64,000 nt of DNA, taken from contig NW_003526941.1 of the NCBI RefSeq assembly GCF_000181795.1, positions 62,001-126,000 of the forward strand, given 5' to 3'. Numbering within the stretch: the stretch's first letter is position 1; every line of letters begins with the position of its first letter. This DNA is from Trichinella spiralis (lineage: Eukaryota). The position numbers and the translations under genes were made by a program. Positions 25,595 through 64,000 of the stretch are shown here, one piece after another. Below the pieces are notes generated by a model. That model worked only from the letters and a program-made list of their open reading frames with translations, searched no databases and was not told the origin of the DNA.

Positions 25595-28150
25595 ATGTAA
25601 GAACTTCAGCTGGACCAATTTTTCACAGATAGCCTTCGCATATTATTCGAAAAATACAAATGCAAACAAAAGCAGTACTTTTTCATGTTTCCTGTTATGA
25701 GTTTTCAATTTCAGCATTTATTTATCATAAAAAGAATAACTTACATTATTATTCATTTATTTGTAAATAACTTTTTATAATATGATTTAAACCTGCAAAA
25801 AAACCAGTAAAAATTTAAATTTAAAATCAACTACAATTACTACAACAGTTTCAGAATTTCTCAAAAGTTTTACTTTATGAACAATTTACATTATTCATTC
25901 ACAAAGCATATAATAATATTCTCGATTTGGAACAAATTTACAAAACTTAACAGCTACGAAATGTTCGAATTCACGCAGTTATTAACAGAACAAAACAGCT
26001 TTACGGGAGATTATTTAAGGTAAATAATAATAATAAATCATCACTTCCACTCATGAAAACAAATATAAAGCAACAAAACGTAAAATACAATAATATTTCT
26101 TTTCTTTTTCTGTACAACAAAACAACACCTCATTTATGCAAAGAGAACTGAACCTCCACGAGTTATCATCATCAGAATAAATTAATTGACATTTGGTCAT
26201 TACTGCATTTGTGGCACTTGGTCAACAGTTAATGTCGTGCCACTTGATGATGAACAAAAAATTTCATAAAATTACTTTTCATAATAGTGGAACTGTTAAA
26301 ATAGATTGTTCAATTGTGCGCATGCAGTACAACTTTTACGCTAGTTAGACACAATTCAACAAATAATGATTTTTCATACATGAAAAGAAAGGATTTCTTC
26401 AATGTCAATCAAAGCAGAAAAATCTTCACATTCCAGCTTCTTGTTTTTTTTTAAATTCATGCTTTAATTAAAAATTCAATCTTCAGAATTCATCTTCACA
26501 TTATGACAGCAATAAATTTTCTAATAGGAAACCAACAGTTGTCCATTGCAAAAAATTGAAATGAAAATCAGCCGCATATTCAGTCAAAAGTTAAACATTG
26601 ACAATCGATAATCTGCCAAGCATTTTAAAATCCATATGATTATGCAGCTGTTTACTTTTCGAACAATAAATGAAATATTACTACTCCTCCATCAATGTTC
26701 ATTTCATTTGCAATTACCCGTCATACAATGCAAATATCTGATTAGTGTAAAAATTAACATGTATAAAAAAATTTTTCATTTATATCTTCAGAAAATTAAA
26801 TCAATGTTTAAATAAACTAAATGAACGTTTTTGATCTCTCGACAACACAAACTGACAGTGGGAAATATTGTAAAAACTGTCAAAATTATAACATCTCATT
26901 TTTTTACAAATATAACAACACTTCAATTTCAAAATCGATCAACACCTGATAAGATTATATTAAATATTACAGCTTATATAAATTCATTCAGCGTTCTGTT
27001 CTGCATTAACCCCCTCATAGGATAGGACATAATTATCGATAACCGTGTAGAAAATATTGGTAAAGAAAGTTATTACAAAACAATTTGTCAATATTTAATC
27101 TTATTTTAAGTTATTTTGTAGATTTAATTGATAACTTGTTTTCAATGACTTGCTTTTCACATCCGTCATGCGCTAGCTACTGCTATTAAACATCTCCGAC
27201 CGTTGAATATTATATCCCTGTTTCCATCATTTACGAGAACCATATATTTGATTATTAGATTTATAATTCAATAAAAATTAAAGGCTACTTCAGATCAGTT
27301 AAGTCTATCAACTTTATAAGATAAATTATTATCGTAAAAAGAAGCTGCGTATCAGTTTTATCGGCACTTCCGACTGCGTCAGCAAATAAAAACGCAAAAT
27401 TTATATTCAGGCAATGAAAAATATCAGTTACCAAATTTGCACTTCACGATAACACAAAACCCCCTCAATCAGAGAACAACACATCCAAGATAATTTCAGC
27501 TAAAGCACAATTTTTAAATTTATTTCCATTTTCAAATGGCTGACTTCACAATGAAAAATTTTAATCCCACTAATGAACAATCTACATTTTAATGAAAGTT
27601 ATTCAGGTTTCTTGTATTCAAAAAGAAACTGCAATTAGCTTCCGATTATGATTATTATTACTTATTAGTGAAATTCACCTTCATATAAATATCAGCGTTG
27701 TAGAGACTGAATTGGTGAAGGGTTGTTGTGAAAAATTTTGAAGTAAATAAAAGTTAATTTAAAAAACTAAAATATAATGCTTATAACTCATAAATATAAA
27801 TATAAATATAAACCTAATTTCATATATACTTAAGTGTCGCAAGAAATAAATATAATTTTAAATTACATAAATCCAATTTGCCATTACAGACTTTACAGTA
27901 TGAAAAATAATGCTTAAATAACTTTAAGCAATTACTGTATCGGTAGTTTCTCACATAAAAGTAAACTGCTTGAAATTGTGCTTTCTAACCGCTAATTTTA
28001 AACAGAAGTATTATTCAGAATTTGAAATAATTTACTTCCAAACAGTGAAATTCTTTCAATGAACCACAACCACTGCCTCGAGCCTTGCTATAGATGGTTT
28101 GTCAAAGCTGTCAATCTTATGTTCTACTTATAATCTGCCTTTTAAGAGAT

Positions 28151-28757
28151 ATGCTATATTTACTCAGACCCGCATTTGCTCGATCAAAGTGCATTCTTTT
28201 TGACTTTTCCAACCATTTCTCGTAACTAATGAAATTCAATCGGACGTGGAAACCATATTTCAACTGTTCGTGTGTTTTATTTATAGGCTCTCTGCACTGA
28301 GTTCTGAAGGAATAATTGTCGCTTATCATCCTCGAAAACCTTTTCCATACGAACACAGCAAAGTATAATTGTTTATTATGATTGAATTTTCATTCTCATG
28401 ATTTTGATCCTTTCAGCCTGTTCTGCTGAACGCTACTGCAACTGAAAAGGTATCTTGCGCAACGAATTAGTTAGATATATAGTAGATACGTAGATATTTT
28501 CTTTTATTTAGGAAGACGACAGCATTTTATCTGAAGAAGTGCAAGAACGCTATAAAACAGTCCATTACCCACGTGGTCCCAGTTTGCCTGACTGCCAAAA
28601 TATGTTTTACACAAACAAGCATGTATTTCACATTAAGTAAGTTTTTATTATTTTACATTTATTTATAAGGTAATTATTATATTTAAATTACAGACCTAGA
28701 AAAACAAGAATTGCCAGTACTCTGCCTGAAGAACCTACTGTTCGAAAAGGATTATAA
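28151..28757 (+). CDS. MRPL42: Mitochondrial ribosomal protein mL42 (MRPL42/MRPS32), five exons
   Basis: Exons 28151-28221, 28287-28362, 28417-28449, 28512-28636 and 28694-28757 join in phase at GT-AG introns: MLYLLRPAFARSK...ALSSEGIIVAYHPRKPFPYEHSKP...RGPSLPDCQNMFYTNKHVF...RKGL*. This resembles the mL42 motifs IVCYHP..PYEHTKP and GP...MFFTTKH. An alternative in-frame ATG is at 28094. Confidence 0.85.
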
Positions 28758-29500
28758 TGCATGTCTCTTCAAGTTGCAAAAAAATTCCAATTTATGCAAA
28801 ATGGTTGGGCAAAATATCATATGTAGAAGGTTTACGTTGGCAAAGTATTTATGAACAGAAACTATCTGGGCATTTTACGCATTTGATTGTTAAGAAATTC
28901 AATGAAGAAGACATGATCTGTCATACGATATTGCTGTTAGAACATTTTCCAGTTTATACTATAGGACTACGTACAAGAAGTTATCCGGAAGAATTGAAAA
29001 AAAAATTAGAATGTTTAGGCGCTGATTTCTACAAAACTAATCGAGGCGGTTTGATCACATTTCATGGTCCTGGACAACTGGTGGCTTATCCTATTTTATA
29101 TCTTCCTGAATTTCACTCGCGGCCATTCAGCAAATGGTATGTAAATCAACTGGAAAAGTGTTTGATTGAAGTTTGCTCTAGTTTTGATGTGAAAGCCTAC
29201 GCCCCTGGATCACCGTTGACTGGAGTATGGGTAAATGATCGTAAAATAGCTTCAATAGGGCTTCGATTGAAAAACGACATCAGCACTCATGGAATCGCAT
29301 TGAACTGCAACATCGATTTGAGTTGGTTTGAACACATTGATCCTTGTGGCCTGATTGGGAAACAAATGACATCTTTAAGTTCAGAAACAGAAACCGACGT
29401 TACTGTACACGATGTTATTGAACCTTTCCTGAAAGCTTTCAACAAATACTTTGGACGAGAAGTTATTCTCAAAAATAAAGCTGAATTGGCCGCGTCATAA
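28757..29500 (+). CDS. LIPT2: Octanoyl-[ACP]:protein octanoyltransferase (LipB/LIPT2), intronless
   Basis: LLLEHFPVYTIG, RGGLITFHGPGQLVAYPI, TGVWV..RKIASIG, HGIALN, HIDPCG motifs. Confidence 0.95.
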   Translation: MHVSSSCKKIPIYAKWLGKISYVEGLRWQSIYEQKLSGHFTHLIVKKFNEEDMICHTILLLEHFPVYTIGLRTRSYPEELKKKLECLGADFYKTNRGGLITFHGPGQLVAYPILYLPEFHSRPFSKWYVNQLEKCLIEVCSSFDVKAYAPGSPLTGVWVNDRKIASIGLRLKNDISTHGIALNCNIDLSWFEHIDPCGLIGKQMTSLSSETETDVTVHDVIEPFLKAFNKYFGREVILKNKAELAAS

Positions 29501-30727
29501 TCGTCATCATCTCTTATTTAATGTGCATGCTAATTTCTATCATTGAATTAAATATATGCAAATATGGTATAATTATTGTTCTTCATGAAAATTAAAAACA
29601 TTCTGAATTGCAGAGTGCACATTATTTAAAAATATAACCATAATTCTTCATGATGATAAAATTCTAAATTAAGCATTACAGTACAAATTGAAAAAAAAAA
29701 CTGGAGCTTCTTAACCAATTTTATAGCTTTGGTATGCAATGTAAATACAGTTAGTTAGATAAGAATAACACAAGATGCTCCCAAGCAAAACAACGTGAAC
29801 TGCAACAAAACCAATGTTTTCATAACTAGGCAAATTGATGAGAATGTGATAGTATAAGCGTTTTTATGGCCACTTTTAGAAATAATGATTCAACTGAAGA
29901 GAATAAATGACAGTTACTTAAAAATGATATACTTTCCGTTTCGTTGCTGTTTCACACACTAAAACTCTTAACGTACAAACAACGAGTGCCTAAGTGTGAC
30001 AAATAGGTGAATATCAACATCAAATACATATGATACTAGTACTGAAGCGCTTTGCCAATAAAAGACCCTTCATTTGCTACTATGCTCACTAGTACCCGAG
30101 AAATTATTTTTTTTAATAAAAAGTTCCATTATCCGATTATTCAAATTAAACTTTTAAATTATTAAACATTAAAGCACTACAAAAGAGAACAACCTATTGA
30201 AATTGCTCAGCTCAATCGGTTGAACTGTTTAAAAAAACAATAATATTAATTATGTAAACAACTTACTAACAAAGAACGCCCAATCATTGGATATGAAACC
30301 ATTTTGTCGGATGCCAAGAAGGTATTTGAGATCTGCGGCCAGTTCCTTCAATTAGATATTCATAATAAACCTATTTATAAATGTAATGTAAAAAATATAG
30401 TAATGTAAAAAACGGGGCTCCGATAAAATGCATATAGCAAATTCATTACAGAAATAAACATTTTATTATCCCGTAATATATATTACAGGAGTAAGTATGA
30501 CAAAATGATATGAAACCACAAGAAGAGAAGCAACTATAATGATTAAAATAATGAAGAAAATAAATACTACACACAATAAACAAATTTCAAAATCTAATAT
30601 AACTGCAACAATATATAATATAAATTGTATATTATATATACAAGATAGAAACTGCAGTATAAAAGTGCCTTCTTCGTGTATATAATTTCCTCATGCTGAA
30701 AAAAATTCATAAACCAGATGTAAAAAA

Positions 30728-56843: not shown

Positions 56844-59800
56844 TTAATCACTGGACTTGCTGCAAGAACGAAACACATACTTGATGTAAGGGAGCTCAAT
56901 ATCTTCACCATGTTCATCAGTACACATCGTCTCGAGAACAATAGCATTGACATAAGATGGAATTTTTTGCCCAGTAATCGATTCAACCAAATCAGTTACC
57001 CTTGAATAACAAACATATTATTGTCCAATATAATTAACTAATATCAATCCTTATTATTATAAATTTTTAAAAATTATTTGCACTCAATTAAAATTCACTT
57101 CATTCAACATACTTCATGTTCATTCGCTGTTGCTGCTTCGCCAGGGGAAGAAAAAACGAGAACAACATGCTAACTCCTTGAGAAAGCATAGTGACTTCCA
57201 CATTAAATTTTTCCTAAACATGTATTTCACAAAAAAAAATATAGTGCATACAATAATAACATGCAACCACAAATTTCACATCTCCAGTTTTACCTTCATG
57301 TACGACAAAAATTCTTTCAATGTCATTTCTCCTTTCAATTCCAAACAATCCCACAATGTCCATTCTTTATCATAAAACTAGAAATATTAACTCATTTAAG
57401 AAAAAATAATAATAAAGAAACCGCATAATCATTTGCATAATAAATATAATTTCACTTCTTAAATATCAACTGCAAATCTTGAAAACGACTATCATCATCT
57501 AAAAATTTTATATATTACTTTTTTCACTGGTGTTCTGATAGGTTCGGCAAAGCCAAAAAATGGCAAAGCAAGATTCATGAAACTATTCTTGAAACGTTCC
57601 AAATTCGCTTTCTTAGACGAAGAACTGACAATCTTAAATACAAAAGAGACTCTGAGCATATCAATGAAAAGTCAGTCTGTCAGTCTGACTGTTGGTGAAT
57701 CTCTTGGCGTATGCGCATACCTTGTAAAATTCTAAACCAACCAAACCAGCTACTGCAGCCGTAGTTGTAGCAATCGCTGGAATAATGCGACCAGCAATCT
57801 GTTTAGTCTAAATAAGACAAATTTAATGAATGAAAGAAAAAATGTGAAGCAAAAAAGAAAAAAACTAATATACAATACCTTCATAAAGTCAGCTTTTTCA
57901 ATTTTATAATTTTCTGCACGCAAATTGCTTGCCGCTGTTATGAATTCCATATGATGATTGGTATCGTCGTCTTTTTCAAAATCGATCGGTACCAAACGGG
58001 AAGTTTTTTCCGGCTTCAACTTTGCCAACATCAATTGCAAATCTTGAAAACGACTATCATCATCTGAAACGATGGAAAAAAAAACATGGATAATCTTTGC
58101 AAGGTGCAGTGGTGGTGTTCAAAAAACACAAATATTCACCGGATGTCGCTCCAGCAAGTTCAGCCGCTTCTTCGTCCGTTGTTGGAATTTTCAAACCAAT
58201 CTTCGGTTTAAACGGTGGCGGTTTCACTTCAGAAGCCAATTCGACAACTTTATCCATGTCGTCGATCGGCTTCATTGCGTACATTTGGGCACGCAAAAAT
58301 GCACTGGCAAAAATGAACTGTCTATGCTCAGGGTTGGAACTGTCGAAATAAATTGCATGTGGACAACGTTTGCTGCCGGACCAAAATTTCGTTCCAAATG
58401 CGGTCAACTGATCTTCTGGAAAACTGTAAAGCAACTGTTGGATTTGAAAATTAAAATGCTGCTCAAACTGGAGTCGTGCCCAGCGAACACAAGCTTCAAC
58501 TGTTGCTGGACGATCATCCGACAAATAATGATAAACATTTTCAAGCAGTTCAAGCTAAAAAAAATAACAATAATAACACTCATATCTATCAGTGTATATA
58601 ACAACAATTATATATTTGTTTTACTTTCTGAGAATCGTGCATCTTATCAATTCTATCAAAAAAACCCCTCGGATCATCCAAAAATTGATTAGCCAACTCA
58701 GCAGGAATGCTAAACGCTCCTTCGAACAGATCGCGAGCCCACTTGAAAAACAATCAAATTAAAAAACATACACACACACACACACACATAGAGAGAAAGA
58801 AAGAGAAATAATAATTAGAAATACTTGAATTGTATGTTCGATAGTGTTGGGAAAGTTCCGCAACGTGCATATAGGAATAGACTTTTCCGGTGGATCATGA
58901 GAACTACTGTATGATTCAGTTAAAAACGGATAGACCACCTGAGTGCTACCTTTGGGACCTTGAGTACCGGAATCAAGCAAAGGCAGTCGATAATAAACAC
59001 ACCGTCGATCCACATAAGTACCTTTTTAAAAGTAATTAAATTTTTTTTGGAAAAAAAGAAATAAATAATTCAAGACAACAATTGCTTACGAGCTTCAATA
59101 TTATCTAAAGCATTTGCAACACCGTCCAGTTTTTCAAAAAATGCATCATCAAAAATGTTTTCCGTCCCCGTGCCAACTCGTTCGCACATCGCCACTACAT
59201 TCAACTGCGAATTAAAATTTTTCGCCACTTTACCTGCCACTTCAGCCTTTTTAGCCTAAAGTTCAGAAATTTAGAAAAAAAAATTCCACAACACTCACCG
59301 ATCGATGACCGTGATAATTAAAATTTATACTCAAATCAAGCATCCGCAAGCAAATAAATCAACGATTAAAAAAAAATTTTTTTTTCAAATTATAATTACA
59401 GTTAGTTAACTTACTCCAACATCTGATCTACGAAATAAAAACTGGCGATTCAAATTTGACAATTCAATATTATCCATGTCGGTGATTATTAAGCAGCCGT
59501 CTTTTCCACAGGCAACACCCATCATTGCGAAATTTTTCAACAGCTCACAGCCAATTGCTCCAGCGCCCACCTAAATAAAAATAAGAAAAATAAGTTATCA
59601 TAAAATACAAAACATCCAATACTAGAAGGAAAAGTTAATTATTACAATCAACCACTTCTGCTTGGCCAATGCTTCTTGAAAATTCCAACCAAACACAGCC
59701 GCTTGACCGTCGTAACGACTGCCTTGCAGACGACATGCTCCTTCATCGCGCAAACCGTAAGCACTATCTGTTTCTGGCAAACATTCCAGTGAATCAAAAT

Positions 59801-61593
59801 ACAGCCATTGGTGTATAGGTGTAAAAATGCCTGTCACTGCCTGGAAAAAAAAACAATTCTGAAAATCTGCTACGTACACAGATGCAAATATTTTCTACTT
59901 TCATAGCCTCTTGAGCAGCTATTCCTCCAATGAATCCATTCATTGCTACCAAATTTCCAACAGCTTGAAAACTTAGCATCTTGGCTAATCTCGCATCGAC
60001 TTTCTCTAGTTTTATTTTCGCAGGAAGCTGAGTGTTGATTTCCTCACAGTATTGAAGCATTTGCTCGGCGTCAGCCTTAAAAAAATGCATTTTCATTTTT
60101 AAAAATACAACTGACATAATATTCTGACCAAATTCTGCGGTCGTGGTAAGCGCCCTTCTTTTTCGAAAAACATGTGCAAACCTTGCCAAATAACATGCAT
60201 CTGTTGGGGTCGGTCCAATTTAGAATGATCAGAAACTAAAATTTCCGGATCCAGCAACGCTTCATTGAGAGATACCTAAATACAATTTCATATATTAAAG
60301 ATTTGGGCTGATAGTTTTACTTATTTATTCATTTATTTAACTTATACGAATAAAATGGTGCAATTTCTTAATAATATAAAACGCACAAATAAATAAATAA
60401 ATAAATAGACTTACAAATTCCATTTTCACCGGAACTTTCACCGTTTTCGCTTTGCCACCTTCAGTATGCTCAGAATATGTAGAAATATCACCAATATTGA
60501 ATTCCATAGTATCTAAAATAAACCAAAGATCTGAAATACTTGCTTCACGAAAAAAAAGTATACATATATAAACTTACTGATAACTTTCACTTTACGAGGG
60601 GGACAGTCGTTCAGTTCAACCATTCCTTTCACTTCACGAAAAGTAACATAGTCACCGTCTTCCAAATTATGCTTCATATCTTCCAAAACAAAAACATTTC
60701 CAGTTTCCTAACAAATATTAATTTAAAAAAATCAACAATAACTATAAACTTTTATGTATAGAAAAAAAAACCAACTCTGTCAATGTGATTAATAATAACT
60801 TCAGTGCACGGTTCACCATTCGAATCGTCGATAATGTGATTCGAACCAAAATCATTAAACAAAACACCGAACAAGCCGCGGCAATCGGCTGCAATAAATT
60901 TTTTCCCATACTTTCTGGTCCACAAATTAATCTGCTTTTGTTCTGCTAAAGTTGCCTCAGTAATTATGACAAGCTACAATTAAAAAGAAAAAACCACGCT
61001 ATATTTGACAATTCTGCGCTGCTGCTGTGACTGGAAAAGAAACTGAAAAAAAAACTTGCATCGAACTGCTTTACTAAATTTTCATTCAATTCTTCAGTAA
61101 TGCATCCAACAGTAACGCTGTCATTAAGTTCCTCCAAGTGGGGCCACGATTCCACGGCCCGATTTTTCCCCAAACACTGTTCGTTCAAATAGTACTGAAA
61201 CAGTGAAATCAATCTATCATAAAATGTCGCTTAGATACGAAATTGTGCACTAACCTGAGCCGACAAGTCCAACCAAGTTGCAGTTTTCGTATCGTGAATA
61301 GTGACGTGTCGAATACCTCCAAGTATGAGATTTTTAGCAATTTCCACACCAACTCCACCAATGCCACTTATTAAAACGGTTGAAATTCTCAAACGCCGCA
61401 TGGCAACTTCCCCCAAAGCATATCTAATTAGTTCAATAATAATTTATAATAGACCGTTCCAGTCAATTAATTTCACTTACAGTTGACGAAAATACAGCTG
61501 TGGATCAAAAGAGCCCTAACTTTTGATCGCCCCATTACCCATGTCTGTGTTAGAAGATTTTTCAGAATTTCCTTGAATCGGACCTTCAACCAT
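56844..61593 (-). CDS. UBA1: Ubiquitin-activating enzyme E1, multi-exon; in-frame TAG at 61516-61518 near the N-terminus as assembled
   Basis: [56 protein letters not shown], catalytic [26 protein letters not shown], last exon [10 protein letters not shown]...*. Confidence 0.9.
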
Positions 61594-61635: not shown

Positions 61636-61645
61636 NNNNNNNNNN
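61636..61645. other. Assembly gap (10 N)
   Basis: Run of n characters. Confidence 1.
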
Positions 61646-64000
61646 AAAAATTCTTTAATGTCCTTTCTCCTTTCAATTCCAAACAATCCCACAATGTCCA
61701 TTCTTTATCATAAAACTAGAAATATTAACTCATTTAAGAAAAAATAATAATAAAGAAACCGCATAATCATTTGCATAATAAATATAATTTCACTTCTTAA
61801 ATATCAACTGCAAATCTTGAAAACGACTATCATCATCTAAAAATTTTATATATTACTTTTTTCACTGGTGTTCTGATAGGTTCGGCAAAGCCAAAAAATG
61901 GCAAAGCAAGATTCATGAAACTATTCTTGAAACGTTCCAAATTCGCTTTCTTAGACGAAGAACTGACAATCTTAAATACAAAAGAGACTCTGAGCATATC
62001 AATGAAAAGTCAGTCTGTCAGTCTGACTGTTGGTGAATCTCTTGGCGTATGCGCATACCTTGTAAAATTCTAAACCAACCAAACCAGCTACTGCAGCTGT
62101 AGTTGTAGCAATCGCTGGAATAATGCGACCAGCAATCTGTTTAGTCTAAATAAGACAAATTAAATGAATGAAAGAAAAAATGTGAAGCAAAAAAGAAAAA
62201 AACTAATATACAATACCTTCATAAAGTCAGCTTTTTCAATTTTATAATTTTCTGCACGCAAATTGCTTGCCGCTGTTATGAATTCCATATGATGATTGGT
62301 ATCGTCGTCTTTTTCAAAATCGATCGGTACCAAACGGGAAGTTTTTTCCGGCTTCAACTTTGCCAACATCAATTGCAAATCTTGAAAACGACTATCATCA
62401 TCTGAAACGATGCAAAAAAAAACATGGATAATCTTTGCAAGGTGCAGTGGTGGTGTTCAAAAAACACAAATATTCACCGGATGTCGCTCCAGCAAGTTCA
62501 GCCGCTTCTTCGTCCGTTGTTGGAATTTTCAAACCAATCTTCGGTTTAAACGGTGGCGGTTTCACTTCAGAAGCCAATTCGACAACTTTATCCATGTCGT
62601 CGATCGGCTTCATCGCGTACATTTGGGCACGCAAAAATGCACTGGCAAAAATGAACTGTCTATGCTCAGGGTTGGAACTGTCGAAATAAATTGCATGTGG
62701 ACAACGTTTGCTGCCGGACCAAAATTTCGTTCCAAATGCGGTCAACTGATCTTCTGGAAAACTGTAAAGCAACTGTTGGATTTGAAAATTAAAATGCTGC
62801 TCAAACTGGAGTCGTGCCCAGCGAACACAAGCTTCAACTGTTGCTGGACGATCATCCGACAAATAATGATAAACATTTTCAAGCAGTTCAAGCTAAAAAA
62901 AATAACAATAATAACACTCATATCTATCAGTGTATATAACAACAATTATTATTTGTTTTACTTTCTGAGAATCGTGCATCTTATCAATTCTATCAAAAAA
63001 ACCCCTCGGATCATCCAAAAATTGATTAGCCAACTCAGCAGGAATGCTAAACGCTCCTTCGAACAGATCGCGAGCCCACTTGAAAAACAATCAAATTAAA
63101 AAACATACACACACACACACACATAGAGAGAGAGAGAGAAAAAATAATAATTAGAAATACTTGAATTGTATGTTCGATAGTGTTGGGAAAGTTCCGCAAC
63201 GTGCATATAGGAATAGACTTTTCCGGTGGATCATGAGAACTACTGTATGATTCAGTTAAAAACGGATAGACCACCTGAGTGCTACCTTTGGGACCTTGAG
63301 TACCGGAATCAAGCAAAGGCAGTCGATAATAAACACACCGTCGATCCACATAAGTACCTTTTTAAAAGTAATTAAATTTTTTTTTGGAAAAAAAGAAATA
63401 AATAATTCAAGACAACAATTGCTTACGAGCTTCAATATTATCTAAAGCATTTGCAACACCGTCCAGTTTTTCAAAAAATGCATCATCAAAAATGTTTTCC
63501 GTCCCCGTGCCAACTCGTTCGCACATCGCCACTACATTCAACTGCGAATTAAAATTTTTCGCCACTTTACCTGCCACTTCAGCCTTTTTAGCCTAAAGTT
63601 CAGAAATTTAGAAAAAAAAATTCCACAACACTCACCGATCGATGACCGTGATAATTAAAATTTATACTCAAATCAAGCATCCGCAAGCAAATAAATCAAC
63701 GATTAAAAAAAATTTTTTTTTCAAATTATAATTACAGTTAGTTAACTTACTCCAACATCTGATCTACGAAATAAAAACTGGCGATTCAAATTTGACAATT
63801 CAATATTATCCATGTCGGTGATTATTAAGCAGCCGTCTTTTCCACAGGCAACACCCATCATTGCGAAATTTTTCAACAGCTCACAGCCAATTGCTCCAGC
63901 GCCCACCTAAATAAAAATAAGAAAAATAAGTTATCATAAAATACAAAACATCCAATACTAGAAGGAAAAGTTAATTATTACAATCAACCACTTCTGCTTG
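61646..64000 (-). repeat. Near-identical second copy of UBA1 segment ~57308-59660 (tandem duplicate or unmerged haplotype), runs off window
   Basis: Offset about 4338 bp; exons and introns almost identical apart from a few SNPs and microsatellite length changes; begins immediately after the N-gap. Confidence 0.95.

What the first reader, a model, noticed from the sequence alone, without database searches (positions are those of the whole stretch)
28637..28759. Last MRPL42 acceptor could double as a trans-splice site releasing a monocistronic LIPT2 mRNA
Seen: the U-rich intron 28637-28693 ends TTACAG, and the following 63 nt contain no ATG before the LIPT2 ATG. Established: nematodes add spliced leaders at sites that look like 3' splice acceptors. 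Inference: cis-splicing here yields MRPL42, while SL trans-splicing at the same AG yields an mRNA whose first AUG is LIPT2. That would be a splice-choice switch between two unrelated proteins sharing one terminal exon, and is the main alternative to reinitiation.
Basis: inference. Interest (0 to 1): 0.7.

Follow-up and report, generated by a model that had tools for sequence, protein, structure and literature searches.

The report
Nematode two-protein mRNA with overlapping stop-start
In the parasitic worm Trichinella the stop codon of a mitochondrial ribosomal protein gene overlaps the start codon of an unrelated lipoic-acid enzyme gene within one spliced exon, so one messenger RNA likely makes both proteins; the proposed leader-splicing switch was not seen, though a minor share of it is not excluded.

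Summary
The window is Trichinella. Intron 28637-28693 is real and cis-spliced (10 raw reads; contigs of three runs). The next exon carries the conserved last 20 residues of mL42/MRPL42 and all of LIPT2; the mL42 stop overlaps the LIPT2 start (TAATG). Spliced contigs run from the 5' leader to one 3' end near 29569, and depth does not rise after the acceptor (about 15 before, 12 after). No spliced-leader ends were listed at 28694, but with 106 reads and no positive control this is a weak test. A published T. spiralis SL2 operon table does not list the presumed C. elegans homolog. The intron is short and has a perfect donor; its very high AU content is the one point for SL use. mL42 followed by LIPT2 also appears in fused gene models of Trichuris, Necator and Meloidogyne, so the pairing looks phylum-wide. 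Best reading: a dicistronic mRNA, LIPT2 likely made by reinitiation or leaky scanning (0.55); a minor SL-spliced isoform as the main LIPT2 source 0.25. Translation was not tested. New member of a known kind; interest 0.5.

The parts
27941..28096 (+). 5' exon of the mRNA (non-coding for mL42); holds uORF1 AUG at 28059 and uORF2 AUG at 28094
   Evidence: contigs begin at 27941 or 27990, no loose 5' letters; joint in 14 raw reads; AUG map
28097..28146 (+). intron 1 (50 nt, in the 5' leader)
   Evidence: joint in raw reads and 3 of 3 contig runs
28151..28221 (+). mL42 coding exon with start ATG 28151 (exon begins 28147)
   Evidence: product equals stored protein P0122
28287..28362 (+). mL42 coding exon
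   Evidence: PF10210 match
28417..28449 (+). mL42 coding exon
28512..28636 (+). mL42 coding exon; holds AUG 28602 (in-frame Met) and AUG 28621 (other frame)
28637..28693 (+). last intron, 57 nt, 88% AU, perfect GTAAGT donor, TTACAG acceptor (the proposed trans-splice site)
28649..28654 (+). Ur-like hexamer TATTTT, 44 nt before the acceptor AG; expected by chance
   Evidence: present in 69% of shuffles of the intron interior
28694..29569 (+). shared terminal exon: mL42 tail, LIPT2 ORF, 3' UTR
   Evidence: contigs of runs X1 and X2 cover it in one piece
28694..28757 (+). last 20 codons and stop of mL42, conserved in Trichuris muris and Plectus
28755..28759 (+). TAATG: mL42 stop overlapping LIPT2 start
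   Evidence: sequence
28757..29500 (+). LIPT2 (octanoyltransferase) ORF, 247 aa, no intron
   Evidence: PF21948 E 4.5e-38; homologs; start at the usual place for the family
28730..28773 (+). three weak AGs (ending 28731, 28749, 28773) that would fuse mL42 in frame to LIPT2; used by database gene models, no joint listed in RNA
29547..29569 (+). likely poly(A) signal ATTAAA 29547-29552 and 3' end near 29569
   Evidence: contigs of 3 runs end at 29567-29569

Best explanation
The locus makes a cis-spliced RNA whose last exon holds the mL42 stop overlapping the LIPT2 start (TAATG), and this likely dicistronic mRNA is likely the main source of LIPT2, by ribosomes that would reinitiate at the overlap after finishing mL42 (or its short internal ORF), with some leaky scanning. 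Shown: five introns, the cis joint at 28694, both intact conserved ORFs, the overlap. Inferred: that single molecules span both ORFs with one 3' end; that LIPT2 is translated from them; that reinitiation rather than scanning does it. The expected outcome is much mL42 and little LIPT2. The mL42-then-LIPT2 order is inferred to be old in nematodes.
For: Cis joint in 10 raw reads, at least one with 71 letters on the shorter side, so reaching past TAATG; contigs of X1 and X2 span 27941/27990-29569 in one piece, X6 to 29149; no begin or end piles; depth 13.7-17.4 in upstream exon bins and mean 11.6 over 11 LIPT2 bins. The intron has the only 6-of-6 GTAAGT donor of 5 introns, 57 nt from the acceptor. 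mL42 tail conserved; LIPT2 Met sits where homologs start. Stop and start touch here; in the T. zimbabwensis model compared with T. pseudospiralis mL42 they are inferred to lie 1 nt apart (all 8 compatible codings of 128), which an SL route would not need. Out-of-frame AUGs in mL42: 1 against 3.3 expected (P 0.04, weak), none missing in LIPT2. No ZC410 entry in Table S6 of PMC7668243, 20 operon sets from 201 million read pairs, where other lipoylation-gene names do occur. Fused mL42+LIPT2 models in T. nativa, T. pseudospiralis, Trichuris muris (inferred from its cluster), Meloidogyne javanica and Necator americanus. Precedent: 45 Drosophila pairs made only from dicistronic mRNAs, stop-start distance -34 to 319 nt, mRpL53 among the polycistronic-only genes (PMC4528330).
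Against: No translation data. Five AUGs precede the LIPT2 AUG, two with A at -3, so scanning alone should be poor. No UGGGA core (motif recalled) and no unusual fold upstream or downstream of the overlap, whereas reinitiation after long ORFs usually needs such elements (PMC10275272). A contig across two genes does not prove one transcript, and the raw depth is only about 12. The S6 negative rests on my recall that C. elegans LIPT2 is lpl-1/ZC410.7 (only its place beside ZC410.5 was seen) and covers SL2-type leaders only. Fused models show order and strand, not distance.
Confidence: 0.55

Rival explanations
1. One reading: a minority of pre-mRNAs receive a spliced leader at 28694, giving a monocistronic mRNA whose first AUG is LIPT2 and which supplies most LIPT2 protein; the cis-spliced RNA makes only mL42.
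For: Usable acceptor followed by 63 AUG-free nt; most AU-rich of 5 introns, top 2 of 88 crude candidates; Ur-like hexamer 44 nt upstream, in the published 24-49 nt range; C. elegans SL2 sites peak about 50 and 100 nt after the previous exon (PMC5741048); 43% of SL sites in Schistosoma lie at cis acceptors (PMC5832876); weak case for scanning or TURBS. A C. elegans class of gene pairs sharing one exon is recalled from the WormBook operon chapter (not held).
Against: No loose end or 5' pile listed at 28694 against 10 cis reads; no depth step (rough upper bound 21% with assumed fragment counts and no coverage bias); perfect donor 57 nt away; Schistosoma internal SL use favours long introns; Ur hexamer expected by chance (0.69); only 19-31% of T. 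spiralis genes are trans-spliced; not in Table S6; does not explain why stop and start touch.
Confidence: 0.25
2. MOCS1-like splice fusion: rare use of a downstream AG (28731, 28749 or 28773) skips the mL42 stop and gives an mL42-LIPT2 fusion that supplies the enzyme and a targeting peptide.
For: All three AGs are in frame with LIPT2; databases hold such fusions (P0127, P0130, P0132, P0193, P0210, P0222); MOCS1A/B precedent seen as a reference title and figure legend.
Against: No such joint listed in raw reads or in 3 of 3 contig runs; the models join at different places in different species and drop the conserved mL42 tail, as gene finders do; LIPT2 has a family-length N-terminus of its own.
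Confidence: 0.07
3. An internal promoter inside mL42 or the last intron makes a LIPT2-only mRNA without trans-splicing.
For: Common for downstream cistrons of Drosophila dicistronic loci.
Against: No 5' pile, no depth step, little intronic depth.
Confidence: 0.07
4. KSHV ORF35/36-type bypass: ribosomes take uORF2 (AUG 28094, 19 codons, overlapping the mL42 start out of frame), skip mL42, and resume scanning to LIPT2.
For: Two uORFs, the second overlapping the first cistron's AUG, as in PMC3561293.
Against: Two AUGs with A at -3 lie 218 and 237 nt after the uORF2 stop; in KSHV an AUG 246 nt after uORF2 nearly abolished downstream output; both uORF AUGs have T at -3; total upstream AUG count is not unusual (5 against 7.8, P 0.19).
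Confidence: 0.06

Closest known systems
Drosophila dicistronic mRNAs (FlyBase; PMC4528330), e.g. mRpL53 locus, Mocs2
   Same: Processed mRNA with two unrelated ORFs, stop-start distance near zero, a small mitoribosomal protein as partner
   Different: Here in a phylum that can split polycistrons by SL trans-splicing; neither mRpL42 nor Lipt2 names were found in the FlyBase files searched (11 of 12 files)
UAAUG termination-reinitiation (influenza B M1/BM2, caliciviruses, CHV1, SART1; PMC10275272)
   Same: Same pentanucleotide overlap after a long ORF
   Different: Nuclear housekeeping genes; no TURBS core and no unusual structure found; coupling untested
Nematode SL2-type operons (T. spiralis; PMC7668243)
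   Same: Co-transcribed same-strand housekeeping genes; Ur-like hexamer before the acceptor
   Different: No intercistronic region: the mL42 coding sequence runs 63 nt past the acceptor, so mL42 cannot be polyadenylated upstream of it; no SL reads listed
Cis/trans dual-use acceptors (Schistosoma alternative trans-splicing, PMC5832876; C. elegans shared-exon gene pairs, recalled from WormBook)
   Different: Known cases favour long introns or internal promoters; this intron is 57 nt with a perfect donor and SL use is not shown
KSHV ORF35-36 bicistronic mRNA (PMC3561293)
   Same: Two uORFs, the second overlapping the first cistron's start
   Different: Two favourable AUGs stand between uORF2 and LIPT2

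Membership tests
Dicistronic mRNA (FlyBase sense) | A processed mRNA carries both ORFs | tested here: met
   Joint reads reach past the overlap; spliced contigs span both ORFs, one 3' end, flat depth; full-length single molecules not seen
Dicistronic mRNA (FlyBase sense) | Both ORFs encode separate conserved proteins | tested here: met
   PF10210 and PF21948; conserved mL42 C-terminus and LIPT2 N-terminus
Dicistronic mRNA (FlyBase sense) | Downstream ORF is translated from that same mRNA | not testable with these tools
   No ribosome profiling, proteomics or reporter data
SL2-type operon | SL2-type leader on the downstream gene's first exon | tested here: inconclusive
   None listed in 106 reads, no positive control; no ZC410 entry in Table S6 (gene name recalled)
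SL2-type operon | Upstream gene ends and is polyadenylated 74-213 nt before the trans-splice site | tested here: not met
   mL42 stop lies after the acceptor; one TATAAA at 28551 is inside the mL42 ORF, such hexamers precede 219 of 290 acceptor-like sites, no end pile
SL2-type operon | Ur element about 50 nt upstream of the acceptor | tested here: inconclusive
   TATTTT 44 nt upstream, but in 69% of shuffles
SL1-type operon | Upstream 3' end coincides with the trans-splice site | tested here: not met
   The conserved mL42 tail lies downstream of the acceptor; definition
Cis/trans dual-use acceptor, shared-exon pair | One exon ends one gene and begins the next | tested here: met
Cis/trans dual-use acceptor, shared-exon pair | SL-bearing mRNA starts at that acceptor | tested here: inconclusive
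   At most 2 unlisted reads against 10 cis reads; bound 44-94% by capture assumption
Cis/trans dual-use acceptor, shared-exon pair | Long intron or internal promoter that frees the acceptor from its donor | tested here: not met
   57 nt, GTAAGT donor; no 5' pile; promoter not mapped directly
TURBS-dependent reinitiation | Stop and start within about 20 nt | tested here: met
   TAATG; criterion
TURBS-dependent reinitiation | 18S-complementary core in a structured element upstream of the stop | tested here: not met
   No TGGGA (recalled core) anywhere upstream in the spliced mRNA; fold z-scores -0.2 to 0.4
KSHV-type uORF bypass | Short uORF overlapping the first cistron's AUG | tested here: met
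   uORF2, 19 codons
KSHV-type uORF bypass | No favourable AUG between uORF stop and downstream start | tested here: not met
   AUGs 28602 and 28621 with A at -3 (criterion)
MOCS1-type splice fusion | Splice joint that bypasses the upstream stop | tested here: not met
   In-frame AGs exist; no joint listed in 4 of 4 runs, low depth

The most novel reading that the evidence does not exclude
Nematodes have kept, since before clades I, IV and V split, a nuclear mRNA in which mL42 and LIPT2 share an exon and LIPT2 is made by termination-coupled reinitiation after a 122-codon ORF without a TURBS, tying lipoate attachment to mitoribosome supply; C. elegans would then offer a genetic handle on cellular reinitiation after long ORFs.
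Probability: 0.3. Interest if true: 0.75.

Novelty: new member of a known kind. Interest (0 to 1): 0.5.

Why it matters
Animal mRNAs that make two unrelated essential proteins are uncommon, and nematodes normally split polycistrons by trans-splicing. A stop-start overlap between two housekeeping genes whose order seems kept across the phylum is a clean test of whether cellular mRNAs use reinitiation after a long ORF, an open question in PMC10275272. If instead a leader is added at the cis acceptor, it is a splice switch between two proteins in a clade I nematode. Either way it explains a recurring annotation error: six database models in five species fuse the two genes, and others miss one of them.

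Tried and rejected
No whole genome is held, so no genome-wide splice-site statistics. The run search gave 'no RNA holder listed' on record; the three contig runs laid are RNA by guess, but their contigs lack all five introns. Only 4 of 24 listed runs were laid, one of them raw reads at about 18% of the run. No positive control for leader detection at neighbouring genes was obtained, so the absence of SL ends is weak. The only loose end (4 reads at 28636) is the same cis joint followed by what I recognise from memory as a library adapter. Metagenome scan for LIPT2 loci: 80 loci kept of 593, apparently mostly bacterial LipB, 0 of 80 with an mL42 hit: uninformative. Longer-protein search with T. 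muris mL42 found nothing although P0210 exists, so that search is insensitive. Programmed frameshift or read-through: rejected, since the frame offset is inferred to differ between Trichinella clades and the fusion is not needed. RNA structure around the overlap: none beyond shuffles. C. elegans lpl-1 has 7 poly(A) rows in four groups that I could not map to cistrons; its SL junction table was too large to read. C. briggsae TEC-RED supplements: 0 hits for the recalled names. BLAST did not extend to the N-terminal likeness between uORF1 and T. muris mL42. Papers not held: Pettitt 2008 and 2014, Morton and Blumenthal 2011, Allen 2011, WormBook operon chapter; they may bear on novelty. Earlier scan findings: nothing relevant in 5 look-ups.

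Full report
Identity. The ORF 28757-29500 is LIPT2 (PF21948, E 4.5e-38); its best homologs are Trichinella proteins at 96-97%, and it clusters with T. spiralis, T. nativa and others. The five upstream coding exons give a 122-residue protein identical to the T. spiralis mL42 model P0122 (PF10210 above cut-off). No whole genome was held.

Observation. Intron 28637-28693 is 57 nt, begins GTAAGT, ends TTACAG, and is followed by 63 nt without ATG; the mL42 stop and LIPT2 start overlap as TAATG. The AUG-free stretch is ordinary (P about 0.33). The intron is the most AU-rich of five (88%) and has the only perfect donor.

RNA. I laid 4 of 24 listed runs on 27900-29900. Raw run X18 (about 18% read, 106 reads laid) shows five joints with 14, 3, 2, 2 and 10 reads; the last is 28636 to 28694. 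The same five joints stand in contigs of X1, X2 and X6, three studies. X1 and X2 cover 27941/27990-29569 in one piece. No other joint, no pile of starts or ends and no loose end at 28694 is listed. Depth on the sense side is 13.7-17.4 in the two nearly full upstream exon bins and averages 11.6 over 11 LIPT2 bins. A large LIPT2-only class would raise the second figure; a rough bound with assumed fragment counts is 21%, and coverage bias could loosen it. The direct leader test is weak: with at most 2 unlisted reads the bound is 44% if leader reads are caught as well as joints and 84-94% if caught at 15-5%. Contigs cannot show a 22-nt tip. There is no positive control from neighbouring genes.

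Both proteins are real and separate. The exon after the acceptor encodes the mL42 tail, conserved through the last residues in Trichuris muris and Plectus. The LIPT2 Met lies 15 residues before the first conserved motif, against 9-15 in 53 of 120 homologs where the pattern was found. Fused database models drop the tail and join at different places, and no such joint is listed in RNA.

Conservation. Of 212 stored proteins, 5 matched both an mL42 and a LIPT2 profile: T. nativa P0127, T. pseudospiralis P0130 and P0132, Meloidogyne javanica P0193 (named) and P0210, unnamed but clustered with T. muris mL42 and sharing the kinesin of T. muris P0137. Necator americanus P0222 is a sixth; it leaves mL42 at the column of the Trichinella last intron, which would fit skipping of one shared exon. 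All six are nematode; clade labels I, IV and V are from my own knowledge. These models show order and strand, not spacing. Comparing T. pseudospiralis mL42 with the T. zimbabwensis model that reads the other frame into LIPT2, all 8 compatible codings of 128 put one base between stop and ATG: the spacing is inferred to have shifted by 2 nt while staying adjacent, which argues against a fixed frameshift.

The SL hypothesis. For: a usable acceptor, high AU content (2 of 88 crude candidates), a Ur-like hexamer at -44, an SL2 peak about 50 nt after the previous exon in C. elegans (PMC5741048, section read), and frequent SL use of cis acceptors in Schistosoma (PMC5832876, passages). Against: the hexamer arises in 69% of shuffles; Schistosoma cases favour long introns; that a nearby donor suppresses trans-splicing is stated there as the usual premise and otherwise recalled; only 19-31% of T. 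spiralis genes are trans-spliced and downstream cistrons take SL2-type leaders almost only (PMC7668243, Results and parts of Methods read); its Table S6, which includes sets split at SL-receiving internal exons, has no ZC410 entry while C45G3.3 and M01F1.3 occur. That negative depends on the recalled name and misses SL1-type use. A regular operon is impossible because mL42 ends after the acceptor.

Mechanism. The spliced mRNA is 1341 nt with five AUGs before LIPT2: uORF1 (12 codons, ending 3 nt before the mL42 AUG), uORF2 (19 codons, overlapping it), mL42, an in-frame Met giving a 32-codon ORF that also ends at TAATG, and an out-of-frame AUG that overlaps the LIPT2 start. Pure scanning should be inefficient, and the KSHV-type bypass fails one defining feature (PMC3561293, passages). 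The contact of stop and start points to reinitiation, though no TURBS core or structure was found (PMC10275272, passages and one section). I put LIPT2 made from the dicistronic mRNA by reinitiation or scanning at 0.55, a minor SL isoform at 0.25, fusion 0.07, internal promoter 0.07, uORF bypass 0.06. That the dominant RNA is cis-spliced and carries both ORFs I hold at about 0.85. All statements on translation are inference.

Known kinds and novelty. Drosophila has 159 dicistronic pairs, 45 with no monocistronic form, including near-zero stop-start distances and mRpL53 as a polycistronic-only gene (PMC4528330, passages and supplement rows). C. elegans dicistronic operons and shared-exon pairs are recalled from a WormBook chapter that was not held, and it may already mention this pair. 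Searches for LIPT2 with bicistronic (3 papers), ZC410.7 with elegans, lpl-1 with dicistronic terms (1 listed, unrelated) and MRPL42/mL42 with LIPT2, nematode or lipoyl (unrelated) found no description of the pair in the held library. Other papers seen as passages only: 10.1101/642082, PMC7986045, PMC5817353, PMC9258526 (52, supplements searched in 78), PMC3045954, PMC1657053; PMC5476274 as a listing. Unseen supplements that bear on the verdict: the C. elegans SL junction table.

Verdict. A real shared-exon, stop-start-overlapping mL42-LIPT2 pair on a likely dicistronic mRNA, apparently old in nematodes. The SL switch is possible but unshown and at most a minority in the one raw sample. New member of a known kind; interest 0.5.

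Noticed in passing
window 28059-28150: uORF1 (12 codons, stop formed across intron 1) is kept at 10 of 12 residues in the T. pseudospiralis model P0132 and resembles by eye the N-terminus of T. muris mL42 (P0140); skipping exon 28147-28221 would put it in frame with mL42. It may be the ancestral mL42 start. BLAST did not pick up the likeness and no skip joint was listed.
   Followed up: partly
window 28621: The out-of-frame AUG that here opens a 58-codon ORF across the LIPT2 start is in frame with LIPT2 in the T. zimbabwensis and T. papuae models (P0002, P0133), where it could give an N-extended LIPT2.
   Followed up: partly
P0003 (Trichuris suis LIPT2 model): Starts Met-Thr five codons before the Met used in other Trichuris models; Met-Thr codons necessarily hold a TGA in another frame, so an AUGA overlap with mL42 is possible. 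DNA not available.
   Followed up: no
window 28101-28435: Raw reads of opposite orientation at depth 2-4, covering introns, with C>A at 28237 in 4 of 4: antisense RNA or DNA carry-over.
   Followed up: no
window 57463-60219 and 61801-63361: Near-identical repeat of a gene that looks like ubiquitin-activating enzyme E1 (label by eye) on both sides of the N run at 61636-61645: likely an assembly duplication.
   Followed up: no
P0137, P0210 (Trichuris muris models): LIPT2 is fused to a downstream kinesin, suggesting a same-strand neighbour or operon there; in this window the next gene is on the other strand.
   Followed up: no
P0062, P0109 (two cockroach models): LIPT2 is fused behind a 3'-5' exonuclease domain: LIPT2 may be a downstream cistron in other animals too, with another partner.
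   Followed up: no
P0216, P0194, P0218 (Meloidogyne): An RRM gene lies directly upstream of mL42 in fused models, hinting at a longer cluster in that genus.
   Followed up: no
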